Origin: a bacterium
GTDB taxonomy: Archaea; Thermoplasmatota; E2; JACPAO01; JAHFTW01
Direction of reading: 5' to 3'
Length of the DNA stretch: 64,000 bases
Assembly: GCA_040390065.1 (NCBI GenBank)
Contig: JAZJZE010000005.1
Location: 309,170-373,169 of the forward strand
The position numbers and the translations under genes were made by a program. Shown here piece after piece: positions 14,755 through 62,819 of this stretch. How positions within the stretch are numbered: position 1 is the stretch's first letter; each line of letters begins with the position of its first letter. The notes beneath the pieces were generated by a model. It searched no databases, was not told the DNA's origin, and saw nothing but the letters and a program-made list of their open reading frames with translations.

Positions 14755-15402
14755 TCACAGGGGAAGGGGCGGTCCTGCGCCCGCTTGGCCGCGTCCATAA
14801 CCCAAGAGGACGAGTCCCCCGACGGCCGCGAGGGGAATTCCCCACATGGCCGCCGCGAGAACCAGGGATTCTGCGCGGACGACGGTTGAAATCAGGAAGG
14901 CCAAGAAGAATAGGCCGAGAGCCGCAGCGATGAGGCGCAGGCCCCAGCGTCTGGGGATTGGCGGGAATTGTCGACCGAGCCATGACCCAAGGAACGAGGC
15001 GAGGCCAATCCAGGGAGCGGTGGCAAGAAATACCAACACCGGGACGGTCAAGAGCGCCTTGAGACCAAACCAATCGGTGTTCCAGGTGACTGCCCCCGTT
15101 GCCACGACCGGCCAGAGCACCCCCGGCACGAAGACGGTGGCCCATAAGCCAATCCAGGCCATCACAGCGTGGGCCCACCAGACCCCGCCGCGGCGCTGTT
15201 CGGTCATGATGAGGCAGAGCACGACGAAGAGGCAGATCATCAGGGAATTGAACGCCAGCTCGACGGTGCGGGTGGGCAGGGTTCCACGGACCTGATGCGC
15301 CGACGGAATGGCGGCAACGGCGTACATCGCCGCGCCGAACAAGATGCCGAGGACGAGGGAGGGCGTCGCCGCGCCCAACGAGGCGGGCATCGTGCGCCCC
15401 AT
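14755..15402 (-). CDS. Hypothetical multi-pass membrane protein
   Basis: About 6 hydrophobic segments. Its ATG overlaps the mutase stop (TGATG). Confidence 0.6.
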   Translation of the reverse strand: MGRTMPASLGAATPSLVLGILFGAAMYAVAAIPSAHQVRGTLPTRTVELAFNSLMICLFVVLCLIMTEQRRGGVWWAHAVMAWIGLWATVFVPGVLWPVVATGAVTWNTDWFGLKALLTVPVLVFLATAPWIGLASFLGSWLGRQFPPIPRRWGLRLIAAALGLFFLAFLISTVVRAESLVLAAAMWGIPLAAVGGLVLLGYGRGQAGAGPPLPL

Positions 15403-17114: not shown

Positions 17115-17235
17115 GCTGGAGGCCAAAGAGACGGACAGGAAGAATGTAGCGGCCGATGGCCGCACCGGGGGCGAAAGCCTCCTATGGCTGCCGAGGGGTG
17201 CCAGTGTCGTGGCCACGCGCCGTCGGGCGGATTGA

Positions 17236-18378
17236 GTGGGACTCTACTGGAATCCCTACGGCGCCGCGGGAACCACCGTGATGCTCGTCGGCCTCGGGCT
17301 GGCTTCCTGGGTCTTCTTCACGAATCCGGGGCGCTCGCAGAACCGCCTTCTCGCCCTCGTCATCACCTTCCAAGCCATCATTGTCGGGTTCGCCCAGGGC
17401 GTCATGTTCTTCTTCGACGATCCGGCGTCCGTCTACGCCCTGCAAGGCGTGGCCTTCACTTTCTTCTGGCCCTACGTGCTCGCCTACCTCGCCTTCCTCG
17501 GGACCCTCGACACGCGGGCGACGAGGTGGCTGCGCTTGGGGTGGGTCCGCTGGTCCTTGCTCGGCCTGGCGGCCGTTGGCTTCGTGGCGTACGTGTCGCG
17601 CTTCGACCTCTTTGTCACGGGCACCGCGCCGGCCCCCTACGCGCGACTCGACGCCGAGTTCACGCAGCTCGCTATCCTGCACCAGGTCTTCGTGCCCTTG
17701 CCGCTTTTCCTCTTCGGCATCTACGCGGCCCTGTCCAATCTCCGGAGCACGAAGCCCGGCACGCCGGCGCGCTCCCGGGCCAAGGCCTACTTTGGCGCCT
17801 TCCTCTTCAATGACTTGCAGAACCTCATCCTGACGTTGGCCTTCGTGGTGGCGTTGTACGCGCCGGAGCACATCTACGAATCCATCAACGCCTACATCGT
17901 GGTCAGCTACTTCGTCGTCCTGCTCTTCTTCGTCCTACTCGCCTACGGCCTCCTGAAGACGCAACTCTTCGACATTGACCTGAAGGTGAAGTGGACCATC
18001 CGGCGTGGCTCGTTGGCGGCGTTCTTCCTGGCCGCGTTCTTCGTCGCCTCACAGTTGGCGCAGGCGGTGTTGCCCGGCGTCCTCGGCGGCCCAATTGTGG
18101 GCGCGGTGGTCGTCGGCCTTCTCATGTTTGCCGTACGACCCCTGGAACGTGCCGCGGGCAAGTTCGCGGACACCGCCATGCCGACGGTCAAGGACAACGA
18201 AGACTATCGGACCGTGCGCAAGAAGGACGTCTACCGCGCCGCCGTTGAGTCCGCCCTTCGGGACGGGAGTGTCAGCGAGAAGGAGCGCGGCATGCTCGCC
18301 GCCTTGGCAGACCAGTTGGGTCTGGCGGCGGGCGAGGCGCACGGCATCGAAATCGACGCGCGCAGGACGATGGCGTAG
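17236..18378 (+). CDS. Polytopic membrane protein with TerB-like C-terminal helical segment
   Basis: About 9 TM segments, then [31 protein letters not shown]. Confidence 0.7.
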
Positions 18379-23648: not shown

Positions 23649-24056
23649 CTACCCGCCCTTTGTGGCGGCAAGCATCGCCATGGCCTTCTCGACGACTTGG
23701 ACGTGGCGCCCCTCTTCGGCCGCCAGCTTGACGAACAGGTCGCGCAAGGCAGGGTCGGCCAGGTCATCCTTGCGCCCGAGGTAGAAGCCCTGCGCCATGC
23801 GTTCGCAGTCGAGCATCGCTTGCAGAAGGTCGAGGGGAGTGAGGAGAACTTCCCGGGCCTTCACGTCGGCGTTGAGACGACCCAGCGCGGCCGTCAACGC
23901 AGCATGACCCGGTCCGCCCTGGAACACGGGCTGCAAGGATTCGCGGATGGGCCCGGGTGGGATGCGGCGCTCGAAGGCGCGTTCCAAGCCCTCGAAGGAA
24001 TCCTCCAACTGGTGGGCAAGGTACAGGAGGCGCAGGTCCTTCAGTTGCTCGTGCAC
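23649..24056 (-). CDS. Ferritin-like/rubrerythrin-family protein
   Basis: C-terminal 135 aa of track ORF 23649..25424. E-x6-Y and LAAEEGRH motifs. Confidence 0.65.
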   Translation of the reverse strand: MHEQLKDLRLLYLAHQLEDSFEGLERAFERRIPPGPIRESLQPVFQGGPGHAALTAALGRLNADVKAREVLLTPLDLLQAMLDCERMAQGFYLGRKDDLADPALRDLFVKLAAEEGRHVQVVEKAMAMLAATKGG

Positions 24057-24138
24057 GCCGGGGCAAGGCCCCTGCCTGATTTGGCCTTGCCTGGCAAGCC
24101 GCGACCTACTTGACGGGCCTCGTGCCATGCGATGCGCG

Positions 24139-26283
24139 ATGAACGGCGACCAGCCAGACGCCCGCCTGGCTGCAGGTTTCAGTCCCCGCGTCGTGGCCGT
24201 GGTCGGCGCGTCCCCGAACGGAGGCATCGGGGCGCAGGTGCTTGCCAACATCGTGGCGGGCGGTTTCACGGGGACCGTCTTTGCCGTGCACCCGACAGCC
24301 ACGGCCGTCGCGGGCGCCCGCGCCTTTGCCACCATGGGCGCCGTCCCCGGGCCGGTGGACCTGGCCGTCGTCTGCGTGCCGGCTGGACGGGTGGTCGATG
24401 TGGTGCGCGATTGCGGCCGCTGCGGCGTCAAGGCCGTGGTCGTCATCTCGGCCGGCTTTCGCGAGGCCGGAGAGGCAGGCGCCCGGCTGGAACGTGAATT
24501 GCGCGCAGCCGTGCGCGACGGGGGCATGCGCATGATCGGCCCCAACTGCCTCGGCATCATGAACATGGACCCGTCCATCCGGCTCAATGCGACGTTCGCC
24601 GCGACCCAAGGCCACGACGGCGGCGCGGCCCTCATGACGCAGTCCGGCGCAATCGGCATCGCGCTCTTGGAGCACACGGCGGCGACGCGCTTGGGGCTGG
24701 CCCGCTTTGCAAGCATGGGCAACAAGACCGACGTGTCGGGCAACGACCTGCTGCTGCTCTGGGAGGATGACCCGATGGTGAAGACCGTTCTCCTGTACCT
24801 CGAAAGTCTCGGCAACCCGCGAAACTTCCTGCGCATCGCCTCCCGCGTCGGCCGCAAGAAACCCATCCTCGTGCTGAAAAGCGGACGAAGCGAGGCCGGC
24901 GCGCGCGCTGCTGCGAGCCATACTGGCGCACTTGCGGCCTCCGACGCGATGGTCACGGCGCTGTTCTCCCAAGCGGGCGTGCTGCGCGCGGCAACGGTGG
25001 AGGAATTCCTCGACATCGCCCAGGCGCTGGAAGGGTCGGTCATGCCCCATGGTCCGCGCGTCGCCATCGTGACGAATTCCGGCGGGCCGGGCATCCTGGC
25101 AATGGACGCGTTGGCCGCGTCTGGATTGGCGCCAGCCGCCTTGTCGGAGAAGACCCAGAATGCCCTGCGACCGCTCCTGCCCGCTGCTGCAAGCCTCGCC
25201 AATCCAATCGATTTGCTGGCAAGCGGCGGCCCACGCGAGTACGCCACGACGATTGCTACCCTGGCAGAGGATTCGGAGGTCGACGCGATCATCGCCATCC
25301 ACACCCCGACAGCGTCATGGCCCGAGGCCGATGTTGCCCAGGCGCTCGTCGGATCCGCCCGCAACGCCGGCAAGAGCGTGCTCGTCGTGTTCATGAGCGG
25401 CACACGGCGGTCGCCGGGATACACGACGCTCCTCGAAGCGCACGTCGCGACCTACTCGTTCCCGGAGAACGCGGTGGCGGCACTCGGCGCCCTCGGCCGC
25501 CTCGACGGCTTCCGTCGCCGCGATGCGGGCGCGCATCCGGCCATCGGCGAGGACCGCCCCGCGGTGCGCTCCATCATTGCCCGCGTCGTCGCAGACGGCC
25601 GCGAGTGGTTGAAGCAGCACGAGGCCTTGGCGCTGGTCGCGGCGTACGGCATCCCAGTCGCACGCCATGCGGCCGTCACCTCCGTCGATGGGGCCGTCCA
25701 GGCGGCCGAATGGATTGGCTACCCCGTCGTCCTCAAGGCCGAATCGCCGAGGCTGCTGCACAAGAGCGACACCGGCGGCGTGCGCCTCGGTTTGAAGGAT
25801 GCGGCCGACGTGCGCGCAGCCTTCGCCGCAATGAAGCGGGACTTGGCAGGCCGCGGCATCGCATTGGACGAGGCGGTCGTGATGCAGCACGCCCCGACAG
25901 GGACAGAGCTCATCCTCGGAGCCACGCACCATGCCTCGTTCGGGCCCGCCGTGGCCTTCGGGCTTGGCGGCGTGCACGCCGAAGTCCTTGCCGACGTGGC
26001 CGTCGGCCTCGCGCCCCTATCCGACGCCGAATGCGGCCGGCTCGTGCGTTCCATCCGCGGTTGGGCCCTGTTGGCCGGCCATCGTGCGCCGCCGGCCGAC
26101 GTGATGGCACTCGAGGCCGCCGTGTTGCGCATCTCACGCTTGGCAGCCGACTTCCCGGACATCGCCGAATTGGACCTCAACCCGGTCGTGGCCTACGCGG
26201 TCGGTGGCGGCGCGCTGGCCCTCGATGCGCGCATCCGCATTGCGGCGGTTTCATCACCGTCTGCGGCCTCGCCGTCGCCGTGA
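24139..26283 (+). CDS. ADP-forming acyl-CoA synthetase, fused alpha-beta subunits
   Basis: VAVVGAS, IGPNCLG, QSGA, SMGN, phospho-His in SHTGAL, TNSGG, NPIDL, ATP-grasp HKSDTGGV, ELDLNP. Confidence 0.9.
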   Translation: MNGDQPDARLAAGFSPRVVAVVGASPNGGIGAQVLANIVAGGFTGTVFAVHPTATAVAGARAFATMGAVPGPVDLAVVCVPAGRVVDVVRDCGRCGVKAVVVISAGFREAGEAGARLERELRAAVRDGGMRMIGPNCLGIMNMDPSIRLNATFAATQGHDGGAALMTQSGAIGIALLEHTAATRLGLARFASMGNKTDVSGNDLLLLWEDDPMVKTVLLYLESLGNPRNFLRIASRVGRKKPILVLKSGRSEAGARAAASHTGALAASDAMVTALFSQAGVLRAATVEEFLDIAQALEGSVMPHGPRVAIVTNSGGPGILAMDALAASGLAPAALSEKTQNALRPLLPAAASLANPIDLLASGGPREYATTIATLAEDSEVDAIIAIHTPTASWPEADVAQALVGSARNAGKSVLVVFMSGTRRSPGYTTLLEAHVATYSFPENAVAALGALGRLDGFRRRDAGAHPAIGEDRPAVRSIIARVVADGREWLKQHEALALVAAYGIPVARHAAVTSVDGAVQAAEWIGYPVVLKAESPRLLHKSDTGGVRLGLKDAADVRAAFAAMKRDLAGRGIALDEAVVMQHAPTGTELILGATHHASFGPAVAFGLGGVHAEVLADVAVGLAPLSDAECGRLVRSIRGWALLAGHRAPPADVMALEAAVLRISRLAADFPDIAELDLNPVVAYAVGGGALALDARIRIAAVSSPSAASPSP

Positions 26284-34285: not shown

Positions 34286-34395
34286 GAACATGTTCACGTT
34301 TTTCCGACATGTTGGGTACTTCGAGGATTGCCAATAGAGGCATTTTCCAGGAGTAAACAAGGGGAGATGGCCCACCCGGACAAGGCTTTACATAT
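34286..34395 (+). promoter_or_regulatory. Putative promoter region of the carboxylase-PKS operon
   Basis: TATA-like TTTACATA at 34387-34394, about 28 nt before ATG 34418. Palindromes GAACATGTTC (34286-34295) and CCGACATGTTGG (34304-34315). Confidence 0.45.
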
Positions 34396-34417
34396 CGGGA
34401 CCTTGGCCGTGGCGCTG

Positions 34418-36097
34418 ATGAATCCACCTGCCCACCCCTCCAAGGCCGAAGCCGTCAAGACGACAGGCCACGGGGAGGCGAAAGCGACGACCACGAAGCC
34501 GGCCGCCAAGGCCCCCGGCGGGCAGACCAACGGCGCCGGCCTCGACCCCGTGTCGCGTCTGCGGGAACGCAAGGCCCAGGCCATGATGGGAGGCGGGTTG
34601 GCGCGCATCGCGGCGCAGCACGAGAAGGGCAAATACACGGCCCGCGAACGCATCGATTTGCTCGTCGACCCGGGCACGTTTGTCGAGATCGACCCGTTCG
34701 TGCGCAGCCAAGCCACGGGTTTCGGCATGGACAAGCAGCGCTTCGACGGCGACGGCGTCGTGACCGGGTTCGGCTACGTCGACGGCCGGATCGTCTACAT
34801 CTACAGCCAGGACTTCACGGTCCTCGGCGGCTCGCTCGGCAACGCCACGGCGTCCAAGATCTGCAAGGTCCAGGACATGGCCGTGAAAAACGGCGCGCCC
34901 ATCATCGGCTTCAACGACTCCGGAGGCGCCCGAATCCAGGAAGGCGTTGCGGCGCTCGCCGGCTACGGGGATATCTTCTTCCGCAACGTCAACGCAAGCG
35001 GAGTCGTACCGCAGATCTCCGTCATCGTTGGCCCGTCCGCGGGTGGCGCAGTCTATTCCCCCGCCATCACGGACTTCGTCCTCATGGTCGAGGACACGTC
35101 CCACATGTTCGTGACCGGCCCCGACGTCGTGAAGACCGTGACGGGCGAGGATGCAAGCCAGGAAGAGCTCGGCGGCGCATCCGTGCACGCCGTCAAGTCC
35201 GGCGTCGCCCACTTCTCGGGCATCGACGAGGACGAGACCATCCAGATCCTGAAGCGCCTCATCGGCTACCTGCCGTCCAACAACCTGTCGGAACTGCCCG
35301 TGACGAAGCCGACGGACGACCGTTTCCGCATGGACGAGGCGCTGGACACGATCGTCCCGGACAACCCGAACAAGCCCTACGACATGCGCAACGTCCTCGA
35401 CATGGTCATGGACAAGGGCTCCTTCTTCGAGATCCAGCCGCGGTGGGCACAGAACGTCGTCATCGGCTTTGCCCGCCTCGATGGCTACCCCATCGGCGTC
35501 GTGGCCAACCAGCCCGCCGTCATGGCCGGCGCCCTCGACATCGAATCCAGCATCAAGGCCGCGAAGTTCATCCGTTTCTGCGACGCCTTCAACTTCCCCA
35601 TCGTGAGCTTCGTCGACGTCCCCGGCTTCCTGCCCGGACTGGGCCAGGAGCACGGCGGCATCATCCGCAACGGCGCCAAACTCCTCTACGCGTACTGCGA
35701 GGCAACGGTGCCAAAGTTGTGCGTCATCACGCGCAAATCCTACGGCGGCGCATACATCGTCATGTCGTCCAAGCACGTGGGCTCCGACATGAACTTCGCC
35801 TGGCCCGGCGCCGAGATTGCCGTCATGGGCGCGGAGGGCGCCGTGCAAATCCTCTACAAACGGGAACTCTCGAAGCTCGCGGAAGGCGACCCCGTCAAGG
35901 CCAAGGAGTTGCAGGCCACGTTCCAGAAAGAGTACCAGGAGAAGTTCGCGAACCCGTACGCGGCCGCCGAGCGCGGCTGGATCGACGACGTCATCGAACC
36001 CAGCGAGACCCGGCCCCGCCTCATCGCGGCGTTGTGGCCGCTCATCAACAAGCGCGAGCTGCGGCCCGCCAAGAAACACGGGATCATCCCGCTGTGA
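34418..36097 (+). CDS. pccB: Acyl-CoA carboxylase carboxyltransferase subunit
   Basis: GDGVVTG, DFTVLGGS, DSGGARIQEG, VDVPGFLPG, YGGAY, AVMGAEGA, KKHG. Acetyl- versus propionyl-CoA specificity cannot be read from the sequence. Confidence 0.93.
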   Translation: MNPPAHPSKAEAVKTTGHGEAKATTTKPAAKAPGGQTNGAGLDPVSRLRERKAQAMMGGGLARIAAQHEKGKYTARERIDLLVDPGTFVEIDPFVRSQATGFGMDKQRFDGDGVVTGFGYVDGRIVYIYSQDFTVLGGSLGNATASKICKVQDMAVKNGAPIIGFNDSGGARIQEGVAALAGYGDIFFRNVNASGVVPQISVIVGPSAGGAVYSPAITDFVLMVEDTSHMFVTGPDVVKTVTGEDASQEELGGASVHAVKSGVAHFSGIDEDETIQILKRLIGYLPSNNLSELPVTKPTDDRFRMDEALDTIVPDNPNKPYDMRNVLDMVMDKGSFFEIQPRWAQNVVIGFARLDGYPIGVVANQPAVMAGALDIESSIKAAKFIRFCDAFNFPIVSFVDVPGFLPGLGQEHGGIIRNGAKLLYAYCEATVPKLCVITRKSYGGAYIVMSSKHVGSDMNFAWPGAEIAVMGAEGAVQILYKRELSKLAEGDPVKAKELQATFQKEYQEKFANPYAAAERGWIDDVIEPSETRPRLIAALWPLINKRELRPAKKHGIIPL

Positions 36098-36101
36098 GAC
36101 C

Positions 36102-36794
36102 ATGGTCCAGACCTCCCGCACGTTGCAGATCGAGTTGCCCCCGCCGTTCCCGGCAAACTTCCTCGATTACGTCACGGACGCAGCCCTCAGCCTGCCACAG
36201 ACCTCCGCCACCGTGGAGTTGACGCACGCACTCGCCGCCGTCGGCTACCGCTACCGCGCCATGCACGACGCTCAACGGATGCTGCAGGGCTCGCTCGCAG
36301 TCACAGTGCGCGGCCGCACTCCGGAGGAGAAATTCGTGCAGGACAGCCACCTTATGCACTTCCTGACCGACGGCCTGTCCTCCATCGAAGCCCTGGCTTT
36401 CTCCGCCTACCTCTGCGGCCACCTCACGAACGCGCCGCGCTTTCCCATCCACGCCGGAGCCTTGGCCAAGGTCACGCCGATGTCAGTCGAGAAGCTGTTC
36501 CGCCGCACCTTGCCCCAGGCCGGCCTCACGGCAAGCCTTCGCCGCTTGTGCCGCGCCCGCGAATTCGAGGAATGGAAATCCATGCGCACGACGCTCACCC
36601 ACCGCAGCCAACCCGCCCTTCAGCCCCACCACTTGCTGGTCAGTAAAGTGGCAGAGCTCGACGAAACCTGGCTCCGGCGCAAGCGCGGCTGGCTCGACGA
36701 CCAGATCCTCGTCCTTCTGCGTGAGCTGTTGTCCTTCATGGGCAAGGAAGTCCAGGTGCAGCACGCGCAACCGGTCCACGTGCTGGTGAACTAG
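36102..36794 (+). CDS. Hypothetical alpha-helical protein with HEPN-like R-x4-H motif
   Basis: ATG 4 nt after the carboxyltransferase stop, and its own stop abuts the PKS ATG. Contains EWKSMRTTLTHR. Confidence 0.6.
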   Translation: MVQTSRTLQIELPPPFPANFLDYVTDAALSLPQTSATVELTHALAAVGYRYRAMHDAQRMLQGSLAVTVRGRTPEEKFVQDSHLMHFLTDGLSSIEALAFSAYLCGHLTNAPRFPIHAGALAKVTPMSVEKLFRRTLPQAGLTASLRRLCRAREFEEWKSMRTTLTHRSQPALQPHHLLVSKVAELDETWLRRKRGWLDDQILVLLRELLSFMGKEVQVQHAQPVHVLVN

Positions 36795-45938
<9,144 letters not shown>

Positions 45939-45984
45939 CGGCCGATACCGTCAAACGGCTCGCGCCGCTGGCCGGGGTGTCCCC

Positions 45985-47580
45985 ATGAGCACCTTCTCGA
46001 AGATCCTGGTCGCCAACCGCGGCGAGATCGCCTTGCGCATCATGCGCACCGCGCGCGAGATGGGCATCAAGACCGTCGCCATCCACTCCCCGCAGGATGC
46101 GCGGGCGCCGCACGTTCGCTTTGCCGAGGAAGCCTACCTCATGGGCAACGAGGCGACGGCGACGAACTACCTCAACATCCAGGGCATCGTCGACTTGGCC
46201 AAGGAGGTCGGCGCCGACGCCGTCCATCCCGGCTACGGCTTCCTCTCCGAGCGCGCCGAATTCGCGGAAGCGTTGGGCAAGGCCGGCATCAAGTTCATCG
46301 GGCCGCCCCCCGGACCAATCCGCATCCTCGGTGACAAGGTCGCATCCAAGGTCGCAGCGCGCAAGGCCAACGTGCCCGTCGTCCCCGGCAAGGACGAATT
46401 CGTCAGCACCCTCGACGAGGCCAAGGGCGTCGTCAAGCTCACCGGCTACCCCGTCATCATCAAGGCAGCCTTCGGCGGCGGCGGCATGGGCATGCAGGTG
46501 GTGCAGAACGAGGGCGAACTCGCCGCGGCGCTCGCGGCAACACAGCGCCAAGCCAAGGCAGCCTTCGGTCGCGGCGAGGTGTTCATCGAGAAGTTCATCC
46601 AGCGCCCGCGCCACATCGAGTTCCAGTTCCTCGCCGACGAGCACGGCAACGTCGTGCACTATGGCGAACGCGAATGCAGCGTGCAGCGGCGGCACCAGAA
46701 ACTCATCGAGGAGGCGCCAAGCCCAATCTTGCCCGCTTCCGAACGCGACCGCGTCGGCGCTGCCGTGTGCAAACTCGCAAAGGACGTCGGGTACTGGAAC
46801 GCCGGCACGGCCGAGTTCCTCTTCGACACGGACGCTCCCGGCGGCGGCCAGTTGTACTTCAACGAGGTCAACACGCGCCTGCAGGTCGAGCACCCTGTCA
46901 CGGAGCAAGTGTACGGCGTCGACTTGGTGCGTGAACAGATCCGCATCGCGCAAGGCGAGCCCCTCGGCTACGACCAGAAATGGGTCGACAGCCGCAGGCG
47001 GGGCTGGGCCATCGAGTGTCGCATCAACGCCGAGGACCCGCGCAACAAGTTCATGCCGACGCCGGGGACCATCCACCGGCACTTCCCGCCCAACGGCAAC
47101 GGCGTCCGGCTGGACACGTACCTGTACTCCGGGTTCACCGTGCCAAGCTCGTACGACTCGATGGTGGCGAAACTCATCACGTATGGTCAGGACCGAAACG
47201 AGGCCATCCGCAAGATGCGACGCGCCTTGGCCGAGTACGACCTCGGGAACCTCGTCACGAACCGCGAACTGCACCAAGTCATCTTCCACGACGAAGCGTT
47301 CTGCAAAGGGGAGATGACGACGCGGTTCCTGGACGACCGCAAGATCCTCGACAAACTCATGGGCGTGCAGGCCGCCGTCGACCACGCGACGAAGCAGAAA
47401 CTCGCGGCACTTGCAGCCGCACTTGCCCAGGAACCAGGCGGCATCGACTCCCTCGTCCAGAAATCCTACCAGTTCCAGCAAAGCCAGGCCAAGAATGTCG
47501 GCGTCGACGAATTCGGCCGGCGCAAACTCTCCGCGTGGGGCCGCCGTGGCCGCTACGAGGGCCAGGGCCGGGTGCACTGA
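45985..47580 (+). CDS. accC: Biotin carboxylase subunit
   Basis: KILVANRGEIA, HPGYGFLSE, GGGGMG, RECSVQRRHQK, EVNTRLQVEH, ECRINAED. Confidence 0.95.
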   Translation: MSTFSKILVANRGEIALRIMRTAREMGIKTVAIHSPQDARAPHVRFAEEAYLMGNEATATNYLNIQGIVDLAKEVGADAVHPGYGFLSERAEFAEALGKAGIKFIGPPPGPIRILGDKVASKVAARKANVPVVPGKDEFVSTLDEAKGVVKLTGYPVIIKAAFGGGGMGMQVVQNEGELAAALAATQRQAKAAFGRGEVFIEKFIQRPRHIEFQFLADEHGNVVHYGERECSVQRRHQKLIEEAPSPILPASERDRVGAAVCKLAKDVGYWNAGTAEFLFDTDAPGGGQLYFNEVNTRLQVEHPVTEQVYGVDLVREQIRIAQGEPLGYDQKWVDSRRRGWAIECRINAEDPRNKFMPTPGTIHRHFPPNGNGVRLDTYLYSGFTVPSSYDSMVAKLITYGQDRNEAIRKMRRALAEYDLGNLVTNRELHQVIFHDEAFCKGEMTTRFLDDRKILDKLMGVQAAVDHATKQKLAALAAALAQEPGGIDSLVQKSYQFQQSQAKNVGVDEFGRRKLSAWGRRGRYEGQGRVH

Positions 47581-48071
47581 TGCGATACTCGTTCCAACTC
47601 AACGGGCGCCGCTTCATGGTCAACCTCGAGGAACATGCTGATGGCCCGCGCTACGTCGTCGAGGACGAGACGTTCGCCCCCAAGGTGGAAGCGCTCGGCA
47701 AGGGCCGCTACAAGGTGACAATCGGCCACCAGCGGTACGAGTTCAGCATCCACAACGGCATCGTCATGGAGGGCCCGCGCAACCTCGACCTAGAGGTCCG
47801 CCGCGAGCGCCCTGAACTGGCACGCAGCAAGTCCGGCGGCCGCAAGAACGACGGCAAGATCAGGCCCCCGATGCCCGGCAAGATCGTCGAAGTCAAGGTC
47901 AAGGAAGGCCAAGAGGTCGCGGAAGGCGACGTCCTCGTGGTGCTCGAGGCGATGAAGATGCAAAACGACCTCAAGTCGCCGATTGCAGGGACCGTCAAGC
48001 GCGTGCACGTGCAGGACGGGGCCAACGTCGAAGCGACGGCTGTGCTGTTGGAGATCACGCCCAAGGCCTGA
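47580..48071 (+). CDS. accB: Biotin carboxyl carrier protein
   Basis: PMPGKI and the EAMKM biotinylation motif. TGATG overlap with accC. Confidence 0.93.
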   Translation: MRYSFQLNGRRFMVNLEEHADGPRYVVEDETFAPKVEALGKGRYKVTIGHQRYEFSIHNGIVMEGPRNLDLEVRRERPELARSKSGGRKNDGKIRPPMPGKIVEVKVKEGQEVAEGDVLVVLEAMKMQNDLKSPIAGTVKRVHVQDGANVEATAVLLEITPKA

Positions 48072-48174: not shown

Positions 48175-49788
48175 GTGTCGCGAACGCACCGTGGGCATGA
48201 GGCCATCAAGGTCGGGGAAGCGGCATCGCTTGGCGTCGCGGCACCTGCCCTGCTTGACGAAGAACCAGACACCGACGGCACGCAGGCCGTGCTGGTCGTC
48301 CATGGCATGGGTCAAGGCATCCGCCTGTCGACGCTCGAACTTCTGACGACGGCCCTGCAGTGCGCCGACGTGCGGCACCAGGAGGAACTCGGGGAGAAGC
48401 ACGCCGTGCCACCCGTCCCCGTGGCGAGGACCGTTCGCATCGGCGACACCGAACTGCAGCGCGCGGAATTTGCCATCCGTTCCATGGACCGGCATGGCAA
48501 CCCGGCATTGACCAACGTCCACGTGTACGAGGCATACTGGGCACCCGTCACCGAAGGCGCAACCAACCTGCGGGGCGTCATGGCATTCCTGTGGCGGGCC
48601 GGATGGACGGGCTTCTGGCGCTCGGCGCGTTTCCACCGCTGGATGTTCCAGCACCCCGTCCAATACCCCAAGTCCGTCGGATGGCTCATCCGGGCCGCGG
48701 TCCTCTTCACCCTGGCCATCCTGGGCTCGCTCGTCGCCCTGAACACCGTGATTGGCGTCCAGGCGGCCGCCATGTTCGTCCCCGGAGGCAACGGATGGCC
48801 GTCGCCGGCCCAGCTTCGCGACCTGAACTGGACCGCATTGGCAGCGACCTTCTCGATCTTGGCTTTCCTGGCCTTCGCCCTGCCAGCCCATTGGCTGCGA
48901 AAGGGTCGATGGCGACCCGCTGCGGCTGCCATCGGCTGGATTGGCCTCGTGATGTTCTACGTGACGGGCCTGGCCGTCATCGCGGCCGCCGCCGCCAGCA
49001 TCGCCTCGCTGGCTCGGGGTCCGGCTGGCCTGGGACTGTTCCCGCAAACGACGCCGTTGGCCCATCCCGGCCTCTGGCTGTGGCTGCTGTGGATCCCATT
49101 GGTCGTGGCCTCGTATTTCATCCGGCGCTGGATTGTCGATTACATCGGCGACGTCGCCGTGTACGTATCGCCGCAGTACCTGGACGCGTTCGACGAGAAG
49201 CGCGGGGAAATCAAGAAGCGCACCATGGCGGCCGCGGTCGCCCTGTACGCCGCTCGGACGAAAAACGGCGCCCGGCAGTACGAAAGCGTCGCCATCGTCG
49301 GACATTCACTCGGCTCCGTCATCGCCTACGATGCACTCAACGCAATGCTCGCCCGCGACGAGATCGACGGCCATCCGCACGCCGTCCTTGCCCGGACATC
49401 GATGTTCCTGACCTTTGGGTCCCCCCTCGACAAGACGGCGTTCTTCTTCGGTAGCCTGGGGCGTGGAAAGCACCACTTGCGAGAGGGCTTTGCGGCTGCC
49501 ACGCAACCCCTCATCCAGGATTACGCCACGTACCGCAAGGTTCCGTGGGTCAATGTCCATTCTCGCGCCGACATCATCAGCAACCAACTTTCCTTCTACG
49601 ATGTCATGCCCCCGAGGAATGACTTGCAATCGCGCAATCGTGTTCGAAACATTCGCGATCCCCAGGCGTTGGGCCCAATCATGGCGCACAACGAATACTG
49701 GGGAAATGCACGAGTCTGGGACGGACTCCACGTGGCGCTGCGTGGCGACGATGTTCGGGCCTGGGCGGATCCCCTGGCCTCGAAGTGA
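48175..49788 (+). CDS. Membrane-embedded alpha/beta serine hydrolase
   Basis: VVHGMG, about 4 internal TM helices, GHSLG, TFGSPL, ADIIS, AHNEYW. Start uncertain (GTG 48175 chosen). Confidence 0.7.
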   Translation: MSRTHRGHEAIKVGEAASLGVAAPALLDEEPDTDGTQAVLVVHGMGQGIRLSTLELLTTALQCADVRHQEELGEKHAVPPVPVARTVRIGDTELQRAEFAIRSMDRHGNPALTNVHVYEAYWAPVTEGATNLRGVMAFLWRAGWTGFWRSARFHRWMFQHPVQYPKSVGWLIRAAVLFTLAILGSLVALNTVIGVQAAAMFVPGGNGWPSPAQLRDLNWTALAATFSILAFLAFALPAHWLRKGRWRPAAAAIGWIGLVMFYVTGLAVIAAAAASIASLARGPAGLGLFPQTTPLAHPGLWLWLLWIPLVVASYFIRRWIVDYIGDVAVYVSPQYLDAFDEKRGEIKKRTMAAAVALYAARTKNGARQYESVAIVGHSLGSVIAYDALNAMLARDEIDGHPHAVLARTSMFLTFGSPLDKTAFFFGSLGRGKHHLREGFAAATQPLIQDYATYRKVPWVNVHSRADIISNQLSFYDVMPPRNDLQSRNRVRNIRDPQALGPIMAHNEYWGNARVWDGLHVALRGDDVRAWADPLASK

Positions 49789-49852: not shown

Positions 49853-50623
49853 GTGTCCGTCGTCCTGTGCGACATCGATGACAAGGGCATCGCGACCCTG
49901 ACCATCAACCGCCCCGAAGCCTTGAATGCCCTCAACGCCGACGTGCTCGACGTCCTTGGCTCGACGGTCAAGGGCCTACATGGCAAAGCAAAGGCCATCC
50001 TCGTCACGGGCTCGGGCAAGGCATTCGTTGCCGGCGCAGACATTGCGGCGATGGCGAACCTGAACGGCGAACAGGCTGCAGCGTTCTCACGAAAGGGCCA
50101 GGCTGCATTCCAGGAGCTGTGCGATTTCCCCGGCCCCGTCGTCGCGGCCGTGAATGGCTACGCCCTCGGTGGCGGCCTCGAACTCGCCCTGGCCTGCGAC
50201 ATCATCATCGCGTCCGACAAGGCCAGCGTGGGACAACCGGAGGTCTCGCTAGGCGTGGTACCCGGCTTCGGTGGTTCGCAGCGTTTGCCCCGACGCGTCG
50301 GCCCCGGTATCGCGAAGTTCCTCCTCATGACCGGCGACCGGGTCAAGGCCGACGTGGCGCTGCAGATGGGCATCGTCGACCGCGTCGTGCCGCACGACAC
50401 CCTCATCCCGGAATGCCGCAAACTCCTCGAAACGATTCTGGCACACGGCCCGCTGGCGGTTGCATCGGTCAAGAAGCTCGTCGACGAGGGCCTCGAGACG
50501 GACTTGTGGGAAGGCCTTGAGTTCGAAGCGGAGGGCTTTGGCGCGTCGTTCAGGACCGCGGACCAGAAGGAAGGCATGAAGGCGTTCCTGGAGAAGCGGA
50601 CGCCGACATTCACGGGCCACTAG
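49853..50623 (+). CDS. Enoyl-CoA hydratase (crotonase)
   Basis: INRPEALNAL, FVAGADI, ALGGGLELALACD, QPEVSLG. Confidence 0.94.
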   Translation: MSVVLCDIDDKGIATLTINRPEALNALNADVLDVLGSTVKGLHGKAKAILVTGSGKAFVAGADIAAMANLNGEQAAAFSRKGQAAFQELCDFPGPVVAAVNGYALGGGLELALACDIIIASDKASVGQPEVSLGVVPGFGGSQRLPRRVGPGIAKFLLMTGDRVKADVALQMGIVDRVVPHDTLIPECRKLLETILAHGPLAVASVKKLVDEGLETDLWEGLEFEAEGFGASFRTADQKEGMKAFLEKRTPTFTGH

Positions 50624-51649: not shown

Positions 51650-52405
51650 ATGGACGGGCCACTTCGCCACGTCACGTTCCGCGTCAACCACGATTGCCCC
51701 ATGGCCGCCCTCAGCCGCGAGGTCCCCGCTGCAGACTTCCATTGCTGGAGCGGCCACCGCCTGGAGGTCGTGGAGGTGCGTTGTGCTTCAGCCGTCTGGC
51801 CCCTCGTGGCCCAAGCCGCGAAACGGCACTTGGCGCCCGAACGCATCCTGAGCGTGCCGGAAGGCGGCATCGTCGTGTGGGAGCCCGAGCGTCCGCGAGC
51901 GCATCCCGAGTCGAGCATCAGCCAGACGCTGGAGGCGCACCACGTCCTGTGGATGCAGCCCATGCGCGTGCAAGGTGGCTGGGAGCACTACGACGCCATC
52001 TCGTTTGCCTCTGGCGGCGACCAAGCGGCCCTCACTGCGCTGTCCAAGTCGTGGCCCACACAGGTCGTCCGCCGCCGCGACGTCGGTGCCGAAGACGTGC
52101 TGGCCTCGCTGTTCCTGTCGTTGCGGCCCGCCCTCGACGCACCCACGGACAAGCAGGCAGAAGCCCTCCTGGCGGCCAGCGCAGGCGGGTACTACCGCTC
52201 GCCGCGCAATGCCACGACGGCGCAACTCGCCCGGCGACTCGGCATCGGTCGAAGCGCGTTCGAGGAGCGCCTACGCGGCGGGGAGAACCGCGTCCTGGGA
52301 GCCGTCCTGCCGGCCTTGGAGCAGCAGCGCGCCTTGCATCCGGGGCCGAAGCGGAGAAAAGGCCGGCACACGTCGGCACACCGTGGACTTCAGCCTCAGC
52401 GATGA
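51650..52405 (+). CDS. Archaeal HTH_10 (bacterio-opsin activator-type) transcriptional regulator
   Basis: N-terminal HDCP and C-terminal TDKQAEAL...[20 protein letters not shown]...ERLR. Confidence 0.85.
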
Positions 52406-53522
52406 CGAGGCGCTGATTCGCAAGACCGTGCGAGAGCTTGCCCGCGGCCCTATTGCCTCGCGGGCTGCCGCCCTGGACCGTACAGGCACGTTCCCATCGG
52501 AGGCCATGCACGAACTGGCTGGGCTCGGCACGCTCGGTGCACAGATTCCGTCCGAATACGGCGGCTCGCCGGTCTCCAAGGTCGCGTACAACCTCATCCT
52601 CGAGGAGCTCGCCTGGGCCTGTGCGTCGACCAGTGTCACGTGGGGCGTGCACACGAGCGTTGCCGCCACGCCCATCGTGCAATGGGGTTCGCCCGCAATC
52701 AAGGAACGCTTCCTGCCGCGCCTGGCCTCTGGCGAGTGGATCGGATGCTTCGCCCTGACCGAGCCCGGCGCCGGATCAGACGTGGCGGCCATCACGACGA
52801 CGGCGATTCGCGAGCGCGACGATTACCGTATCAACGGCTCGAAGGTCTTCATCACCAACGGCAACCAGGCCGGCAGCGCCATCGTCGCCGCGAAGACGGA
52901 CCCCGCCGCCGGCCACCGGGGGATCAGCCTGTTTGCCGTGGAGACTTCCTGGAACGGGTTCGGACGGGATGGCCACGAAGACAAGCTCGGCCTCCGCGGC
53001 AGCGACACGGCCCGCCTCAGTTTCACGGACCTGATGGTGCCGAAAGAGAACCTTCTCGGTTCCCCCGGCGACGGCTTCAAGCAGCTCATGCACACTCTCA
53101 ACGGGTCGCGCATCGGCATCGCCGCGCAGGCTGTGGGCATCGCCCAGCGGGCCTTCGACGAAGCGACCTCCTACGCGAAGGAGCGGCGCCAATTCGGCAA
53201 GCCCATCGCTACGAACCAGGCAATCCAATGGAAACTTGCCGACATGGACGTGCGCATCGAAGCGGCGCGGCTCCTCGTCCTGCAAGCCGCGTCAGCGCTC
53301 GATATGGGCGACGTTCCGCCTGCCATGGCGTCGCGGGCCAAGCTGTTTGCCAGCGAGACGGCGACTTGGGTGACGCGTGAAGCCGTGCAGGTCCATGGCG
53401 GCAACGGGTACACCACCGACTACGTCGTGGAGCGCCTGATGCGTGACGCCAAGGTCACGGAAATCTACGAAGGCACGAGCGAAATCCAGAGGATGCTCAT
53501 CGCGCGCAGCCTGCTTGCGTAG
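52383..53522 (+). CDS. Acyl-CoA dehydrogenase (short/branched-chain type)
   Basis: [46 protein letters not shown]. Confidence 0.95.
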
Positions 53523-61239: not shown

Positions 61240-61854
61240 GTGAAGGTCCTCTGCGTAGGCCGCAACTACGCCAAACACGTGCGCGAAATGGGCCAGGCTC
61301 CGCCCGCCTCGCCCATCTGGTTCTGGAAGCCGGAATCGGCCGTGATTGGCGACGGCGATGCCATCCTCCTGCCCGCCGGAATCGGAGCCGTCCACCACGA
61401 GGTCGAACTCGCCTTGCGGATCGGGCGGACGCTGCGCAAGGCGTCTGCGGCAGAAGCAGAGCGCGCCATCGACGCCTTCACCGTGGCCAACGACGTGACC
61501 GCCCGGGACCTGCAGGAAGCGGCAAAGAAGGCAGGCACGCCATGGGCGCAGGCGAAGGGCTACGATACCTTCCTGCCGCTCGGGGAATGGGTGGCCCCGA
61601 CGGGGCATGACCTGTCGCGGCTCGAGTTGCGCCTCACGGTCGACGGAGCAATGCGACAACAGGGAACCACCAAGGACATGACGTGGCCCGCCGCCGACCT
61701 GCTTGCGCACGCCTCGACCTGGACCACCCTCCAGCCTGGCGATGTCCTCCTCACGGGCACACCGGAAGGAGTCGGACCGATGGCGCCCGGCCAGACCGTG
61801 GAAGCCCAAATCGTGGGTGTCGCCCGCGTGCGCAACCCGGTACGCGCCGGGTAG
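61240..61854 (+). CDS. Fumarylacetoacetate hydrolase family protein
   Basis: CVGRNY, HHEVEL, NDVTARD, AKGYDT, GDVLLTGTPEGVG. Confidence 0.93.
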   Translation: MKVLCVGRNYAKHVREMGQAPPASPIWFWKPESAVIGDGDAILLPAGIGAVHHEVELALRIGRTLRKASAAEAERAIDAFTVANDVTARDLQEAAKKAGTPWAQAKGYDTFLPLGEWVAPTGHDLSRLELRLTVDGAMRQQGTTKDMTWPAADLLAHASTWTTLQPGDVLLTGTPEGVGPMAPGQTVEAQIVGVARVRNPVRAG

Positions 61855-61883
61855 CCTTTTTCACGGCAGCCCCTCCCCGACGC

Positions 61884-62819
61884 ATGCGCCTGTGGCCATT
61901 GGCCTTCCTCGTCGTGCTCGCCGTCCCCGCCGCCGCGGCCCAGCCAGCCCACCCCGTCGTCGTCGAAGTCGACCTGCTGGTCATCAGCTTCGGCAACTAC
62001 GACGCAAACAAGGGCACCTACACGATGGACCTGTACCTCCACCTGTCGTACGATGCCATGCACAGCGGCGGCATCGACCCGACGCATTTCGAGTTCGTCA
62101 ATGGGCGGGCCGCCAGCAAGGAACTGCAGTCCGACGACACCAACGCCACGACCGGCATCCGCGACTTGTGGTACAGGTTGCAGGTGAACCTGTACGCCGA
62201 GCCGCACTTCGAGAACTACCCGTACGACGCCCAAATCCTCAGCCTCCAACTCGAGGACGCCGTGCACACCGACAGTGAACTCGTCTACCGCGACGCCCTG
62301 ACGGGGACGGGCATCGACCCGGACATCCACGTCGCCGGCTGGCGCATCGACAATGCAGGAGCGACGGTGGCCCCGAAAGTCTACGCGTTCGGCGAGACCT
62401 ACAGCCGCTTCGCGTACCAGGTCCAGGTCAGCCGCGAACCATTGTCGGCGACCTTGCGCGCCTTCCTGCCGCCGCTGGCGTTCATGATCGTGAGCGCCTT
62501 GTCGTTCTTCCTGCACGCCTCGAAGGTCGCCCAGCGACTGACGCTCGGCACGTCGATGCTCATCGCGGCCGTGGGTTTCCACATCAGCCAGACCGTCTCG
62601 CTGCCGACCCTCGGCCGCTTGACCCTGTTCGACCAACTCATGCTGGCAGCCTACGCCTTCCTTGCTGCCAGTCTCGCCGTGACGGCGCTCGTGGCGTACA
62701 ACGAGGATTTCCGCAAGGACGACAAGACGGCAGCCCGGTCGACGCGGATCAACGTCCGCGGCGCCGTGCTTGCCGCCGCGCTTCCCGTGTTGGTCTTCCT
62801 GGCGCTTCGGTTCCTCTAG
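61884..62819 (+). CDS. Pentameric ligand-gated ion channel (Pro-loop, GLIC/ELIC-like)
   Basis: Signal peptide, beta-rich ECD with YPYD Pro-loop, GW, pre-M1 Arg, M1 proline (FLP), M2-M3 loop LPTLGRLT, four TM helices. Confidence 0.8.
   Translation: MRLWPLAFLVVLAVPAAAAQPAHPVVVEVDLLVISFGNYDANKGTYTMDLYLHLSYDAMHSGGIDPTHFEFVNGRAASKELQSDDTNATTGIRDLWYRLQVNLYAEPHFENYPYDAQILSLQLEDAVHTDSELVYRDALTGTGIDPDIHVAGWRIDNAGATVAPKVYAFGETYSRFAYQVQVSREPLSATLRAFLPPLAFMIVSALSFFLHASKVAQRLTLGTSMLIAAVGFHISQTVSLPTLGRLTLFDQLMLAAYAFLAASLAVTALVAYNEDFRKDDKTAARSTRINVRGAVLAAALPVLVFLALRFL

What the first reader, a model, noticed from the sequence alone, without database searches (positions are those of the whole stretch)
34418..48071. 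Archaeal type I PKS/FAS megasynthase embedded in an acyl-CoA carboxylase operon
Seen: carboxyltransferase, HEPN-like ORF, 3047-aa synthase, biotin carboxylase and BCCP, all co-oriented with gaps of 4, 0, 46 and -1 nt, on a contig with S17e and RFC-L. bioD is about 12 kb upstream. Established: archaeal membranes are isoprenoid, and ACP-dependent type I synthases are not a standard archaeal feature. PfaA-type PUFA synthases have tandem ACPs, and enediyne PKSE has KS-AT-ACP-KR-DH-PPTase. The AT motifs GHSLG and AFHS resemble malonyl-selecting ATs. Inference: a self-contained unit making its own extender, activating its own carriers and building a fatty-acyl or polyketide lipid in an archaeon. The product is unknown, and I cannot confirm novelty without a search.
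Basis: partly seen in the sequence, partly recalled or inferred. Interest (0 to 1): 0.92.

Follow-up and report, generated by a model that had tools for sequence, protein, structure and literature searches.

The report
Archaeal self-contained type I lipid synthase
An archaeon carries one giant enzyme gene for building fatty-acid-like chains, flanked by the genes that make its building block, which matters because archaea are generally thought to lack this bacterial-style machinery.

Summary
Window 34367/34418-48071 (+) encodes a carboxyltransferase, a 230-aa ORF, a 3047-aa synthase, a biotin carboxylase and BCCP, with the stated gaps.

- **Domains:** KS1-AT-KS2-ACPx3-KR-DH-PPTase.
- **Host:** the 449-kb contig is archaeal and not chimeric. 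The same locus with the same flanks recurs in 13 related genomes, and another assembler's contigs bridge the junctions I checked.
- **Not unique:** a KS2 match occurs in 27 of 30 other genomes of the order and 58 of 151 sampled genomes of the phylum. It also occurs in Asgard-labelled MAG proteins and hundreds of bacterial genomes.
- **Closest known kind:** the uncharacterised bacterial "Type R" PfaA-like secondary lipid synthase (Shulse & Allen 2011).
- **Archaeal differences:** the PPTase is fused and a PccB-type carboxyltransferase lies directly upstream.
- **Carboxylase link:** it recurs across phyla, which supports the self-contained-unit reading.
- **Incidental parts:** the "HEPN-like" ORF is a lineage-specific insertion.
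- **Unknowns:** the product is unknown, and no enoyl reductase is evident here.

Two oddities stand out. KS2, called "CLF" in 2011, keeps a full Cys-His-His triad. All carrier domains carry Thr where the phosphopantetheine Ser should be (327 of 328 domains family-wide). PlsC-type acyltransferases co-occur with the synthase across the phylum.

The parts
34367..36097 (+).
   Evidence: PF01039 at 2.3e-195. The best NCBIfam match is TIGR01117 at 781 bits, below its cut-off of 998.8. ATG 34367 follows GGGGAG. The gene lies directly upstream of the synthase in 12 of 13 related loci and in 17 Asgard-type metagenome loci.
36102..36794 (+). 230-aa ORF of unknown family ('HEPN-like'); a lineage-specific insertion
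   Evidence: No Pfam or NCBIfam match. Found only in L013, 1 of 13 related loci. AlphaFold2 without an alignment gave pLDDT 34. The nearest ESM Atlas clusters are bacterial hypotheticals, and a lower-ranked set carries PF18730 in 26% of members.
36795..45938 (+). 3047-aa iterative type I synthase: KS1-AT-KS2-ACPx3-KR-DH-PPTase
36816..38348 (+). KS1 domain (residues 8-518); C223, H357, H401
   Evidence: PF00109, PF02801 and PF16197. The triad is invariant in the 18-sequence alignment A1. The best solved-structure matches are modular PKS KS-AT didomains.
38655..39611 (+). Acyltransferase domain (residues 621-939); GHSLG S720, R745, AAFHS H825
   Evidence: PF00698 at 5.6e-46. TIGR00128 FabD scores 232 bits, below its cut-off.
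40032..41714 (+). KS2 domain (residues 1080-1640), FabF-like; C1311, H1459, K1494, H1499
   Evidence: The best solved-structure matches are FabF at 1e-24. The alignment places the Cys, His and His on the FabF catalytic residues. These residues are invariant in A1.
41791..42709 (+). Three tandem carrier (ACP) domains. Thr stands at the canonical Ser position: T1692, T1816 and T1930
   Evidence: PF00550 in 3 stretches. A 205-nt DNA repeat occurs 3 times. Thr aligns on the Ser of solved ACPs and PCPs.
43365..44033 (+). Ketoreductase domain (residues 2191-2413)
   Evidence: PF08659 at 1.9e-30. S2368, Y2381 and N2385 are invariant.
44313..45122 (+). PKS-type dehydratase domain (residues 2507-2776)
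   Evidence: PF21089 and PF14765. H2526, P2535 and G2539 are invariant; E2698 and Q2702 are nearly invariant.
45369..45785 (+). Fused Sfp-type phosphopantetheinyl transferase domain (residues 2859-2997)
   Evidence: PF01648 at 7.3e-12. PF17837 scores 24.5 bits, below its cut-off. The motifs GVDLE and WTAKEAALK are present.
45985..47580 (+). Biotin carboxylase subunit
   Evidence: PF02786, PF00289 and PF02785. NF006367 scores 603.6 bits, above its cut-off of 597.
47580..48071 (+). Biotin carboxyl carrier protein (EAMKM biotinylation motif)
   Evidence: PF00364 at 3.9e-20.
48175..49788 (+). 537-aa membrane protein with a GHSLG serine-hydrolase elbow; an insertion specific to this genome
   Evidence: Only weak DUF676 and Lipase_3 matches, E 0.025-0.04 and below their cut-offs. 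No tblastn hit in the 93 loci searched.
49853..50623 (+). Enoyl-CoA hydratase/crotonase; follows BCCP in relatives
   Evidence: PF00378 at 1e-69. It lies downstream of BCCP in 8 of the 13 related loci.
51975..53522 (+). Acyl-CoA dehydrogenase; a neighbour, not shown to belong to the unit
   Evidence: Pfam acyl-CoA dehydrogenase domains. It is not a specific ortholog of the acyl-CoA-dehydrogenase-like gene that precedes the synthase in bacteria.

Best explanation
The locus encodes a self-contained, ACP-dependent, iterative type I synthase for a long acyl chain. It is an archaeal variant of the PfaA-like 'Type R secondary lipid synthase'.

**Proposed mechanism**
1. The BC/BCCP/CT complex carboxylates acetyl-CoA to malonyl-CoA (inferred).
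2. The AT loads malonyl units onto three tandem carrier domains.
3. The C-terminal PPTase domain activates those carriers, unusually at a Thr (inferred).
4. Two catalytically complete ketosynthases share the elongation cycles, as the two KSs of PUFA synthases do (inferred by analogy).
5. KR and DH process each beta-keto group.
6. No enoyl reductase is encoded in cis or found nearby. The chain is therefore either unsaturated or polyenoic, or is reduced by an unlinked enzyme.
7. The product is probably passed to PlsC-type acyltransferases encoded elsewhere in the genome, giving acyl-ester lipids alongside the normal isoprenoid ether lipids (inferred from co-occurrence).
For: **Domains and catalytic residues**
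- The catalytic residues of KS1, AT, KS2, KR and DH are invariant in 18 diverse relatives.
- KS2 aligns on the FabF catalytic triad.
- The nearest curated family is PfaA, TIGR02813, at 948 bits.
- All 120 listed homologs share KS1-AT-KS2-ACPn.

**Published architecture**
- Shulse & Allen describe KS-MAT-CLF-ACP(3-6)-KR plus a PPTase gene.
- They note an ACC gene between them in Koribacter.

**Self-containment in the 89%-complete genome**
- ACP and KS domains were found only inside this gene.

**Vertical inheritance**
- 27 of 30 other genomes of the order have a match, against 0 of 10 from other families of the class.
- The order CT-synthase-(BioY)-BC-BCCP recurs in 13 related loci.

**Carboxylase linkage beyond the lineage**
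- BC or a PccB-type CT lies downstream in 34 of 52 loci that have at least 5 kb downstream.
- A PccB-type CT lies directly upstream in 17 Asgard-type loci.

**Downstream route**
- The genome holds 2 PlsC-type acyltransferase genes and GpsA.
- Cross-tabulating synthase and PlsC in 151 genomes of the phylum gives both 48, synthase only 10, PlsC only 5, neither 88.
Against: **Missing parts**
- No product, transcript or protein has been observed.
- No ER was found. PF03060 gave nothing over its cut-off.
- The acyl-CoA-dehydrogenase-like partner gene of the bacterial loci has no specific ortholog here.
- No thioesterase or release domain was identified.

**Carboxylase identity**
- The CT is of the propionyl-CoA carboxylase/MmdA type.
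- It has a 62%-identical paralog on C6 that has no BC of its own.
- The operon could therefore also, or instead, serve propionate metabolism. A methylmalonyl-CoA mutase lies 17 kb upstream.

**Carrier domains**
- They have Thr, not Ser, at the attachment site. Their activation is therefore unproven.

**Weak points in the comparative evidence**
- The PlsC co-occurrence is not phylogenetically independent.
- PlsY was not found.
- Coleman et al. judged archaeal PlsC genes unlikely to work in membrane synthesis.
Confidence: 0.68

Rival explanations
1. It is a specialised-metabolite polyketide synthase. With KR and DH but no ER it would make a conjugated polyene, either a pigment or antioxidant or an enediyne-PKSE-like precursor, and not a membrane or storage acyl lipid.
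For: - No ER domain or PfaD homolog was found.
- KS1-AT is closest to modular PKS structures.
Against: - Tandem ACPs and the best curated match point to PfaA-type lipid synthases.
- The extra FabF-like KS2 is not a PKSE feature.
- The gene is near-universal and vertically inherited in whole orders and families, which is unusual for a secondary-metabolite cluster.
- Most bacterial relatives carry an adjacent acyl-CoA-dehydrogenase-like or NMO reductase-type partner.
- The Asgard-type proteins have a fused NMO ER.
- No tailoring genes lie nearby.
Confidence: 0.2
2. The carboxylase genes form a housekeeping propionyl- or acetyl-CoA carboxylase operon of central metabolism. The synthase gene merely inserted into it, so the two are not functionally coupled.
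For: - The CT is of the PccB/MmdA type.
- BioY, a crotonase and an acyl-CoA dehydrogenase lie in or beside the operon.
- Methylmalonyl-CoA mutase is on the same contig.
- Only 2 BC genes serve 3 CT genes in the genome.
Against: - Carboxylase genes adjoin the synthase in unrelated gene orders. Bacteria show synthase-BC-BCCP-CT-PPTase or synthase-CT-BC. Asgard-type loci show CT-synthase with BC/BCCP divergent or downstream.
- The 5 sampled relatives without the synthase had only a 35-36% identical CT.
Confidence: 0.09
3. The locus is an assembly or binning artefact: bacterial DNA joined to an archaeal contig.
For: The genome is a 50-contig draft, and the family is common in bacteria.
Against: - GC is even across the window and across all contigs.
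- The locus lies inside a 449,520-bp contig that also carries S17e and an RFC-like gene.
- The same flanks (SufS and a copper protein upstream, a crotonase downstream) recur in related genomes.
- Contigs from another assembler of run X1 bridge the junctions I checked with 0 differences at even depth of about 14-16. X1 may be the source sample.
- The archaeal sequences form their own clade in the KS2 tree.
Confidence: 0.01

Closest known systems
'Type R' secondary lipid synthase cluster (Shulse & Allen 2011, PMC3098273; passages read)
   Same: - One PfaA-like gene with KS-MAT-second KS ('CLF')-tandem ACPs-KR, tied to a PPTase.
- An acetyl-CoA carboxylase gene lies in the Koribacter cluster.
- The product is uncharacterised.
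- Relatives labelled Acidobacteriota, Elusimicrobiota and Roseiflexaceae share the architecture here.
   Different: - The host is archaeal.
- The PPTase is fused to the C-terminus.
- A PccB-type CT lies directly upstream, and BioY-BC-BCCP lie downstream.
- A DH domain is present that the 2011 description does not list.
- The 'CLF' has a complete Cys-His-His triad.
- I did not compare the named 2011 reference genomes directly.
PfaA of PUFA synthases (TIGR02813)
   Same: - KS-AT-tandem ACP-KR-DH order.
- It is the best curated NCBIfam match.
   Different: - The score of 948 bits is below the curated cut-off of 1010.
- A second KS sits inside the same protein.
- No PfaD-type ER over its cut-off and no further KS gene were found in the genome.
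- The carrier sites are Thr, not Ser.
Enediyne PKSE
   Same: - An iterative type I synthase with a C-terminal fused PPTase and no ER.
   Different: - An extra FabF-like KS2 and three ACPs.
- No PKSE-named family among the 25 NCBIfam matches shown, out of 71.
- The enediyne accessory genes were not searched for.
Archaeal three-subunit acyl-CoA carboxylase (BC, BCCP and PccB-type CT)
   Same: - The same three subunits with the same domains.
   Different: - The operon is split by a 9-kb synthase gene.
- Substrate preference is unknown.
ACP-independent archaeal fatty-acid synthase complex of Sulfolobus (bioRxiv 10.1101/2024.07.05.601840; passages read)
   Same: - A proposed route to fatty acids in archaea.
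   Different: - That route uses thiolase/DUF35, acyl-CoA substrates, no ACP and no malonyl-CoA.
- The locus here is ACP-, PPTase- and carboxylase-based.

Membership tests
Type R secondary lipid synthase (Shulse & Allen 2011) | A single PfaA homolog with KS-MAT-CLF/second KS-ACP(3-6)-KR | tested here: met
   Pfam domain order. The domain parse of 120 homologs shows KS1-AT-KS2-ACPn in all of them.
Type R secondary lipid synthase (Shulse & Allen 2011) | A PPTase encoded with the synthase | tested here: met
   Here it is a fused C-terminal domain, PF01648 at 7e-12. A PPTase was found in 48 of the 52 loci with at least 5 kb downstream.
Type R secondary lipid synthase (Shulse & Allen 2011) | The KS groups with the Koribacter, Solibacter, Elusimicrobium and Roseiflexus genes | tested here: inconclusive
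   Homologs labelled Acidobacteriota, Elusimicrobiota and Roseiflexaceae were found with the same architecture. The named reference genomes themselves were not in my trees.
PfaA / PUFA synthase (pfaABCD) | Reaches the curated TIGR02813 score | tested here: not met
   948.3 bits against a cut-off of 1010.1.
PfaA / PUFA synthase (pfaABCD) | Partner genes PfaC (KS-CLF-DH) and PfaD (NMO-type ER) | tested here: not met
   PF03060 gave nothing over its cut-off. PF02801 matched only inside this gene. The genome is 89% complete.
Enediyne PKSE | KS-AT-single ACP-KR-DH-PPTase with no further KS | tested here: not met
   A second KS and three ACPs are present.
Enediyne PKSE | Enediyne cassette genes beside it | not tested
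   The neighbours scanned are Suf, carboxylase, crotonase, metallo-beta-lactamase-fold and acyl-CoA dehydrogenase genes. No cassette-specific models were searched.
Type I fatty acid synthase (complete reducing cycle) | An ER domain or partner | tested here: not met
   No ER domain was found. No PfaD-type ER was found. There is no specific ortholog of the bacterial acyl-CoA-dehydrogenase-like partner. Other reductase families were not searched.
Carrier protein (PP-binding) domains | A Ser in the DS(L/I/V) motif as the 4'-phosphopantetheine site | tested here: not met
   Thr stands at that position in all three domains. Across the family it is 327 of 328 domains.
Biotin-dependent acyl-CoA carboxylase | BC, BCCP with a biotinyl-Lys motif, and a CT | tested here: met
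Biotin-dependent acyl-CoA carboxylase | Acetyl-CoA as substrate (malonyl-CoA as product) | not testable with these tools
   The CT is of the PccB/MmdA type. Specificity needs an assay.
HEPN domain (ORF 36102-36794) | An R-x4-6-H motif in an all-alpha fold, or a profile match | tested here: inconclusive
   The motif RTTLTH is present. There is no Pfam match even at E 10. The AlphaFold2 model is unusable. The Atlas gives only a lead to PF18730.

The most novel reading that the evidence does not exclude
This synthase family gives some archaea a complete ACP-dependent route to acyl chains. The archaea concerned are large parts of the window's phylum, named Thermoplasmatota on its close MAG relatives, and Asgard-labelled lineages. 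Together with their PlsC-type acyltransferases and G3P dehydrogenase, these archaea would make bacterial-type acyl-ester lipids de novo. In addition, the family's carriers would be phosphopantetheinylated on threonine by a dedicated PPTase, a linkage not known from characterised carrier proteins (to my recollection).
Probability: 0.3. Interest if true: 0.92.

Novelty: new variant of a known kind. Interest (0 to 1): 0.8.

Why it matters
**Contradiction with current statements.** A 2024 preprint states that archaea lack FAS I, FAS II, ACP and ACP synthase (passages). Coleman et al. dismiss archaeal PlsC genes as probably non-functional in membrane synthesis.

**What this locus adds.** It is a vertically inherited, catalytically intact synthase that carries its own carrier domains. 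It also has its own carboxylase and PPTase. It is widespread in one archaeal phylum and present in Asgard-labelled MAGs. It co-occurs with PlsC. This supplies the missing source of acyl chains for the 'mixed membrane' idea. The question becomes directly testable by expressing a single operon.

**Biochemical puzzles.** These apply to hundreds of bacterial species as well.
- The family-wide Thr at the carrier site.
- The two active ketosynthases in one chain.

Tried and rejected
**Searches and jobs that gave nothing usable**
- The whole-length homolog search timed out. I searched the KS2 part instead.
- Rfam found nothing in the window.
- No RNA holder was listed for 39000-45000, so I have no view on expression.
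- AlphaFold2 of the 230-aa ORF without an alignment gave pLDDT 34. I ran no fold search on it.
- A metagenome scan with one Asgard protein found nothing. The permitted second scan used alignment A2.

**Ideas tested and rejected or left open**
- *The window's acyl-CoA dehydrogenase is the ortholog of the bacterial partner gene upstream of the synthase.* Rejected. The bacterial proteins hit five or more paralogs equally, at 32-37% identity.
- *The window's CT was co-transferred with bacterial synthase-linked CTs.* Not resolved. The C5 and C6 paralogs are equally similar to them, at about 55%.
- *P0034's N-terminal extension is an ER.* Only a weak TIM-barrel hint, TMP-TENI at 8e-4.

**Limits of the tree.** The KS2 tree is FastTree only. 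It is rooted on a long paralog branch and built from the 120 hits closest to this protein. It cannot give the direction of transfer.

**Literature**
- Ten full-text searches found no paper that describes this synthase in archaea, a product for Type R, or a Thr-linked carrier.
- The library lacks most subscription journals. Figures and supplements were not available.
- That affects Shulse & Allen's Figures 1 and 2. [quoted passage not shown] All of these may bear on these claims.
- Herlemann 2009 is not held.
- Villanueva 2017 was seen only as cited.

**My errors**
- In some searches the 'ABH601' query was cut out of frame, so those rows are void. I redid the search in frame and found no hits.

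Full report
**What is there**

- The carboxyltransferase (CT) ends at 36097.
- A 230-aa ORF runs 36102-36794.
- The synthase runs 36795-45938 and is 3047 aa.
- Biotin carboxylase (BC) runs 45985-47580.
- BCCP runs 47580-48071.
- The CT more likely starts at ATG 34367, which follows GGGGAG, than at 34418.

Pfam gives these domains for the synthase:
- KS at residues 8-518 and AT at 621-939.
- A weak thiolase-type signal around residue 1307.
- Three PP-binding domains.
- KR at 2191-2413 and a PKS-type DH at 2507-2776.
- A 4'-phosphopantetheinyl transferase at 2859-2997.

The region 1080-1640 is a second ketosynthase. Its best solved relatives are FabF, at 1e-24. The alignment puts its C1311, H1459 and H1499 on the FabF catalytic residues.

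The flanking proteins are a PccB/MmdA-type CT, a BC and a BCCP.

**The host is archaeal and the locus is not a chimera**

- The window is C5:309170-373169 of a 449,520-bp contig. The draft genome is 2.68 Mb in 50 contigs and is 89% complete with 0.3% contamination.
- GC is even across the window and across all contigs.
- The genome has GGGPS and a G1P-dehydrogenase-family gene.
- Thirteen loci from related genomes show the same order, with SufS and a copper protein upstream and a crotonase downstream.
- Contigs made by another assembler from run X1 bridge the junctions I checked. X1 may be the source sample. The bridged junctions are CT/ORF/synthase, synthase/BC and BC/BCCP/downstream. There were 0 differences, and depth was even at about 14-16.

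**How widespread it is**

- With KS2 as query, 27 of 30 other genomes of the same order have a match. None of 10 genomes from other families of the class do.
- In an even sample of the phylum (151 genomes at least 80% complete, own genome included), 58 have a match at E <= 1e-100. Several coded families are saturated: 8/8, 15/15, 17/17 and 3/3. Others are empty: 0/16, 0/10 and 0/9.
- The protein search returned more than 3800 hits. The best 120 all share KS1-AT-KS2-ACPn.
- Source names for those 120 are Thermoplasmatota first. Then come Asgard lineages (Heimdall-, Thor- and Kari-labelled) and one Bathyarchaeia. Then come Chloroflexota, Myxococcota and Acidobacteriota.
- A scan of species-representative genomes used two family-specific peptides, SHET[YF]TPAR and [LM]E[AES]DLG[IV]DT. 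It hit at least 599 stretches, of which 586 were confirmed.
- The 80 best loci were mostly Acidobacteriota, Chloroflexota, Actinomycetota and Elusimicrobiota.
- A FastTree of KS2, rooted on KS1, gives three groups:
  - an Asgard-type clade of 26 rows;
  - a Thermoplasmatota clade of 32 rows, with a core of 27 at full support;
  - a bacterial clade of 53 rows.
- The sampling and the long root branch do not allow a direction of transfer to be named.

**The closest known thing**

Shulse & Allen (2011) defined a 'Type R' secondary lipid synthase. It occurs in Koribacter, Solibacter, Elusimicrobium and Roseiflexus.
- It is one pfaA homolog with KS-MAT-CLF-ACP(3-6)-KR, followed by a PPTase gene.
- In Koribacter an acetyl-CoA carboxylase gene lies between them.
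- The product is uncharacterised.

The protein here is of that kind, but it is not a PfaA by the curated test. It scores 948 bits against a cut-off of 1010.
- No PfaD-type ER was found in the genome.
- No further KS gene was found.

It is not a PKSE either, because it has a second KS and three ACPs.

Ten literature searches found no product for Type R and no description of the archaeal genes.
- A 2024 preprint states that archaea lack FAS I/II and nearly always lack ACP.
- The two large Marine Group II surveys I checked contain neither 'polyketide' nor 'acyl carrier'.

**What belongs to the unit**

- *Conserved across the order:* CT-synthase-(BioY)-BC-BCCP-crotonase.
- *BioY:* a BioY-like membrane ORF fills the synthase-BC gap in 9 of the 11 gaps I examined. 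One of these was confirmed as PF02632. This window lacks it.
- *The 230-aa 'HEPN-like' ORF:* it occurs only here and in the closest relative.
- *The 537-aa hydrolase-like membrane protein after BCCP:* it occurs only here.
- Both of these are insertions and not parts of the system.

**The carboxylase link is not an accident of this lineage**

- Among the 80 wider loci, BC or a PccB-type CT lies downstream of the synthase in 34 of the 52 loci with at least 5 kb downstream. A PPTase was found in 48 of those 52.
- In 17 metagenome loci of the Asgard type, a CT 52-65% identical to the window's lies directly upstream on the same strand. These genes are ER-KS-AT-KS-ACP-KR-DH-PPTase.
- BC and BCCP lie nearby in eight of those 17 loci.
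- Five sampled relatives without the synthase had only a 35-36% identical CT.
- The genome has three CTs and two BCs. The window's CT has a 62% identical paralog. A shared housekeeping role therefore cannot be excluded.

**The reductase question**

- An acyl-CoA-dehydrogenase-like gene of about 560 aa sits directly upstream of the synthase in 50 of the 70 loci with enough upstream DNA.
- In 3 of 3 Thermodesulfobacteriota loci that place is taken by an NMO-type ER.
- The Asgard-type proteins carry the NMO-type ER as an N-terminal fusion of about 720 aa.
- This swap suggests that the flavoprotein supplies, or controls, enoyl reduction.
- The window's lineage has neither partner. Neither do the Elusimicrobiota loci (0 of 8).
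- Its chain may therefore be more unsaturated, or an unlinked reductase may act on it.

**Two unexpected features**

1. KS2, called 'CLF' in 2011, has an invariant Cys-His-His-Lys set in 18 diverse members. The enzyme therefore has two working ketosynthases.
2. Every carrier domain reads EADLG(I/V)DTVKQAE.
   - The Thr aligns exactly on the phosphopantetheinylated Ser of solved ACPs and PCPs.
   - In this protein the residues are T1692, T1816 and T1930.
   - Across the 120 homologs, 327 of 328 carrier domains have Thr.
   - The Asgard alignment shows the same.
   - A PPTase always travels with the synthase, fused or adjacent. This would make sense if a dedicated enzyme is needed to modify Thr.
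   - I recall no characterised carrier that uses Thr, and one targeted search found none.

**A possible downstream route**

- The genome has two PlsC-type acyltransferase genes and a GpsA-type G3P dehydrogenase. No PlsY was found.
- PF01553 and PF07479 matched only the bacterial control genomes and none of the archaeal ones.
- PlsC occurs in 30 of 30 other genomes of the order, against 1 of 10 genomes from other families of the class.
- In the phylum sample the cross-tabulation is: both 48, synthase only 10, PlsC only 5, neither 88.
- Related genomes are not independent, so this is a lead and not a test.

**Verdict**

The 'self-contained unit' reading is well supported by comparative genomics. 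The system is a new archaeal variant of a known but uncharacterised bacterial synthase type. It is not something unique to this contig. Its product, its reductase, its release step and the chemistry at the Thr carrier site remain open.

Noticed in passing
window 41868-41870, 42240-42242, 42582-42584 (T1692, T1816, T1930): All three carrier domains have Thr where the phosphopantetheine-bearing Ser should be. The same holds for 327 of 328 carrier domains in 120 homologs from archaea and bacteria.
   Followed up: partly
L044-L119 (bacterial loci), about 1.7 kb directly upstream of the synthase: An acyl-CoA-dehydrogenase-like gene of about 560 aa, with a C-terminal extension of about 170 aa that has no Pfam match, precedes the synthase. 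This holds in 50 of the 70 loci with enough upstream DNA. An NMO-type ER takes that place in 3 of 3 Thermodesulfobacteriota loci.
   Followed up: partly
G000:C8:21390-21767, C9:327718-328101, C1:254132-254557, C13:23383-23823 and C13:31086-31724: The genome combines bacterial-type PlsC acyltransferases and GpsA with the archaeal G1P-dehydrogenase-family gene and GGGPS. No PlsY was found.
   Followed up: partly
window 48175-49788: A 537-aa protein with predicted membrane stretches and a GHSLG serine-hydrolase motif is inserted between BCCP and the crotonase. It has only weak lipase/esterase matches and was found in none of the 93 other loci searched.
   Followed up: partly
window 61611-62819: An ORF matches the transmembrane region of neurotransmitter-gated (pentameric ligand-gated) ion channels, PF02932 at 1e-07, in an archaeal genome.
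   Followed up: no
window 416-511: The tRNA-Asp(GTC) call is 96 nt long, longer than a standard tRNA. This may indicate an intron.
   Followed up: no
window 15402-17243 and 23908-26283: Methylmalonyl-CoA mutase and an ADP-forming acyl-CoA synthetase-type protein lie on the same contig. They are relevant to whether the carboxylase also serves propionate metabolism.
   Followed up: no
P0034 (3795 aa, same order) residues 1-340: A relative has an N-terminal extension of about 330 aa with only a weak TIM-barrel (TMP-TENI) hint. Its locus also lacks BC and BCCP within reach.
   Followed up: partly
L121 (contig of 162,241 bp) / P0055: One Asgard-type synthase is labelled 'Zixibacteria' by a source. 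It sits inside the Asgard-type clade of the KS2 tree. This is either a binning label problem or a transfer.
   Followed up: no
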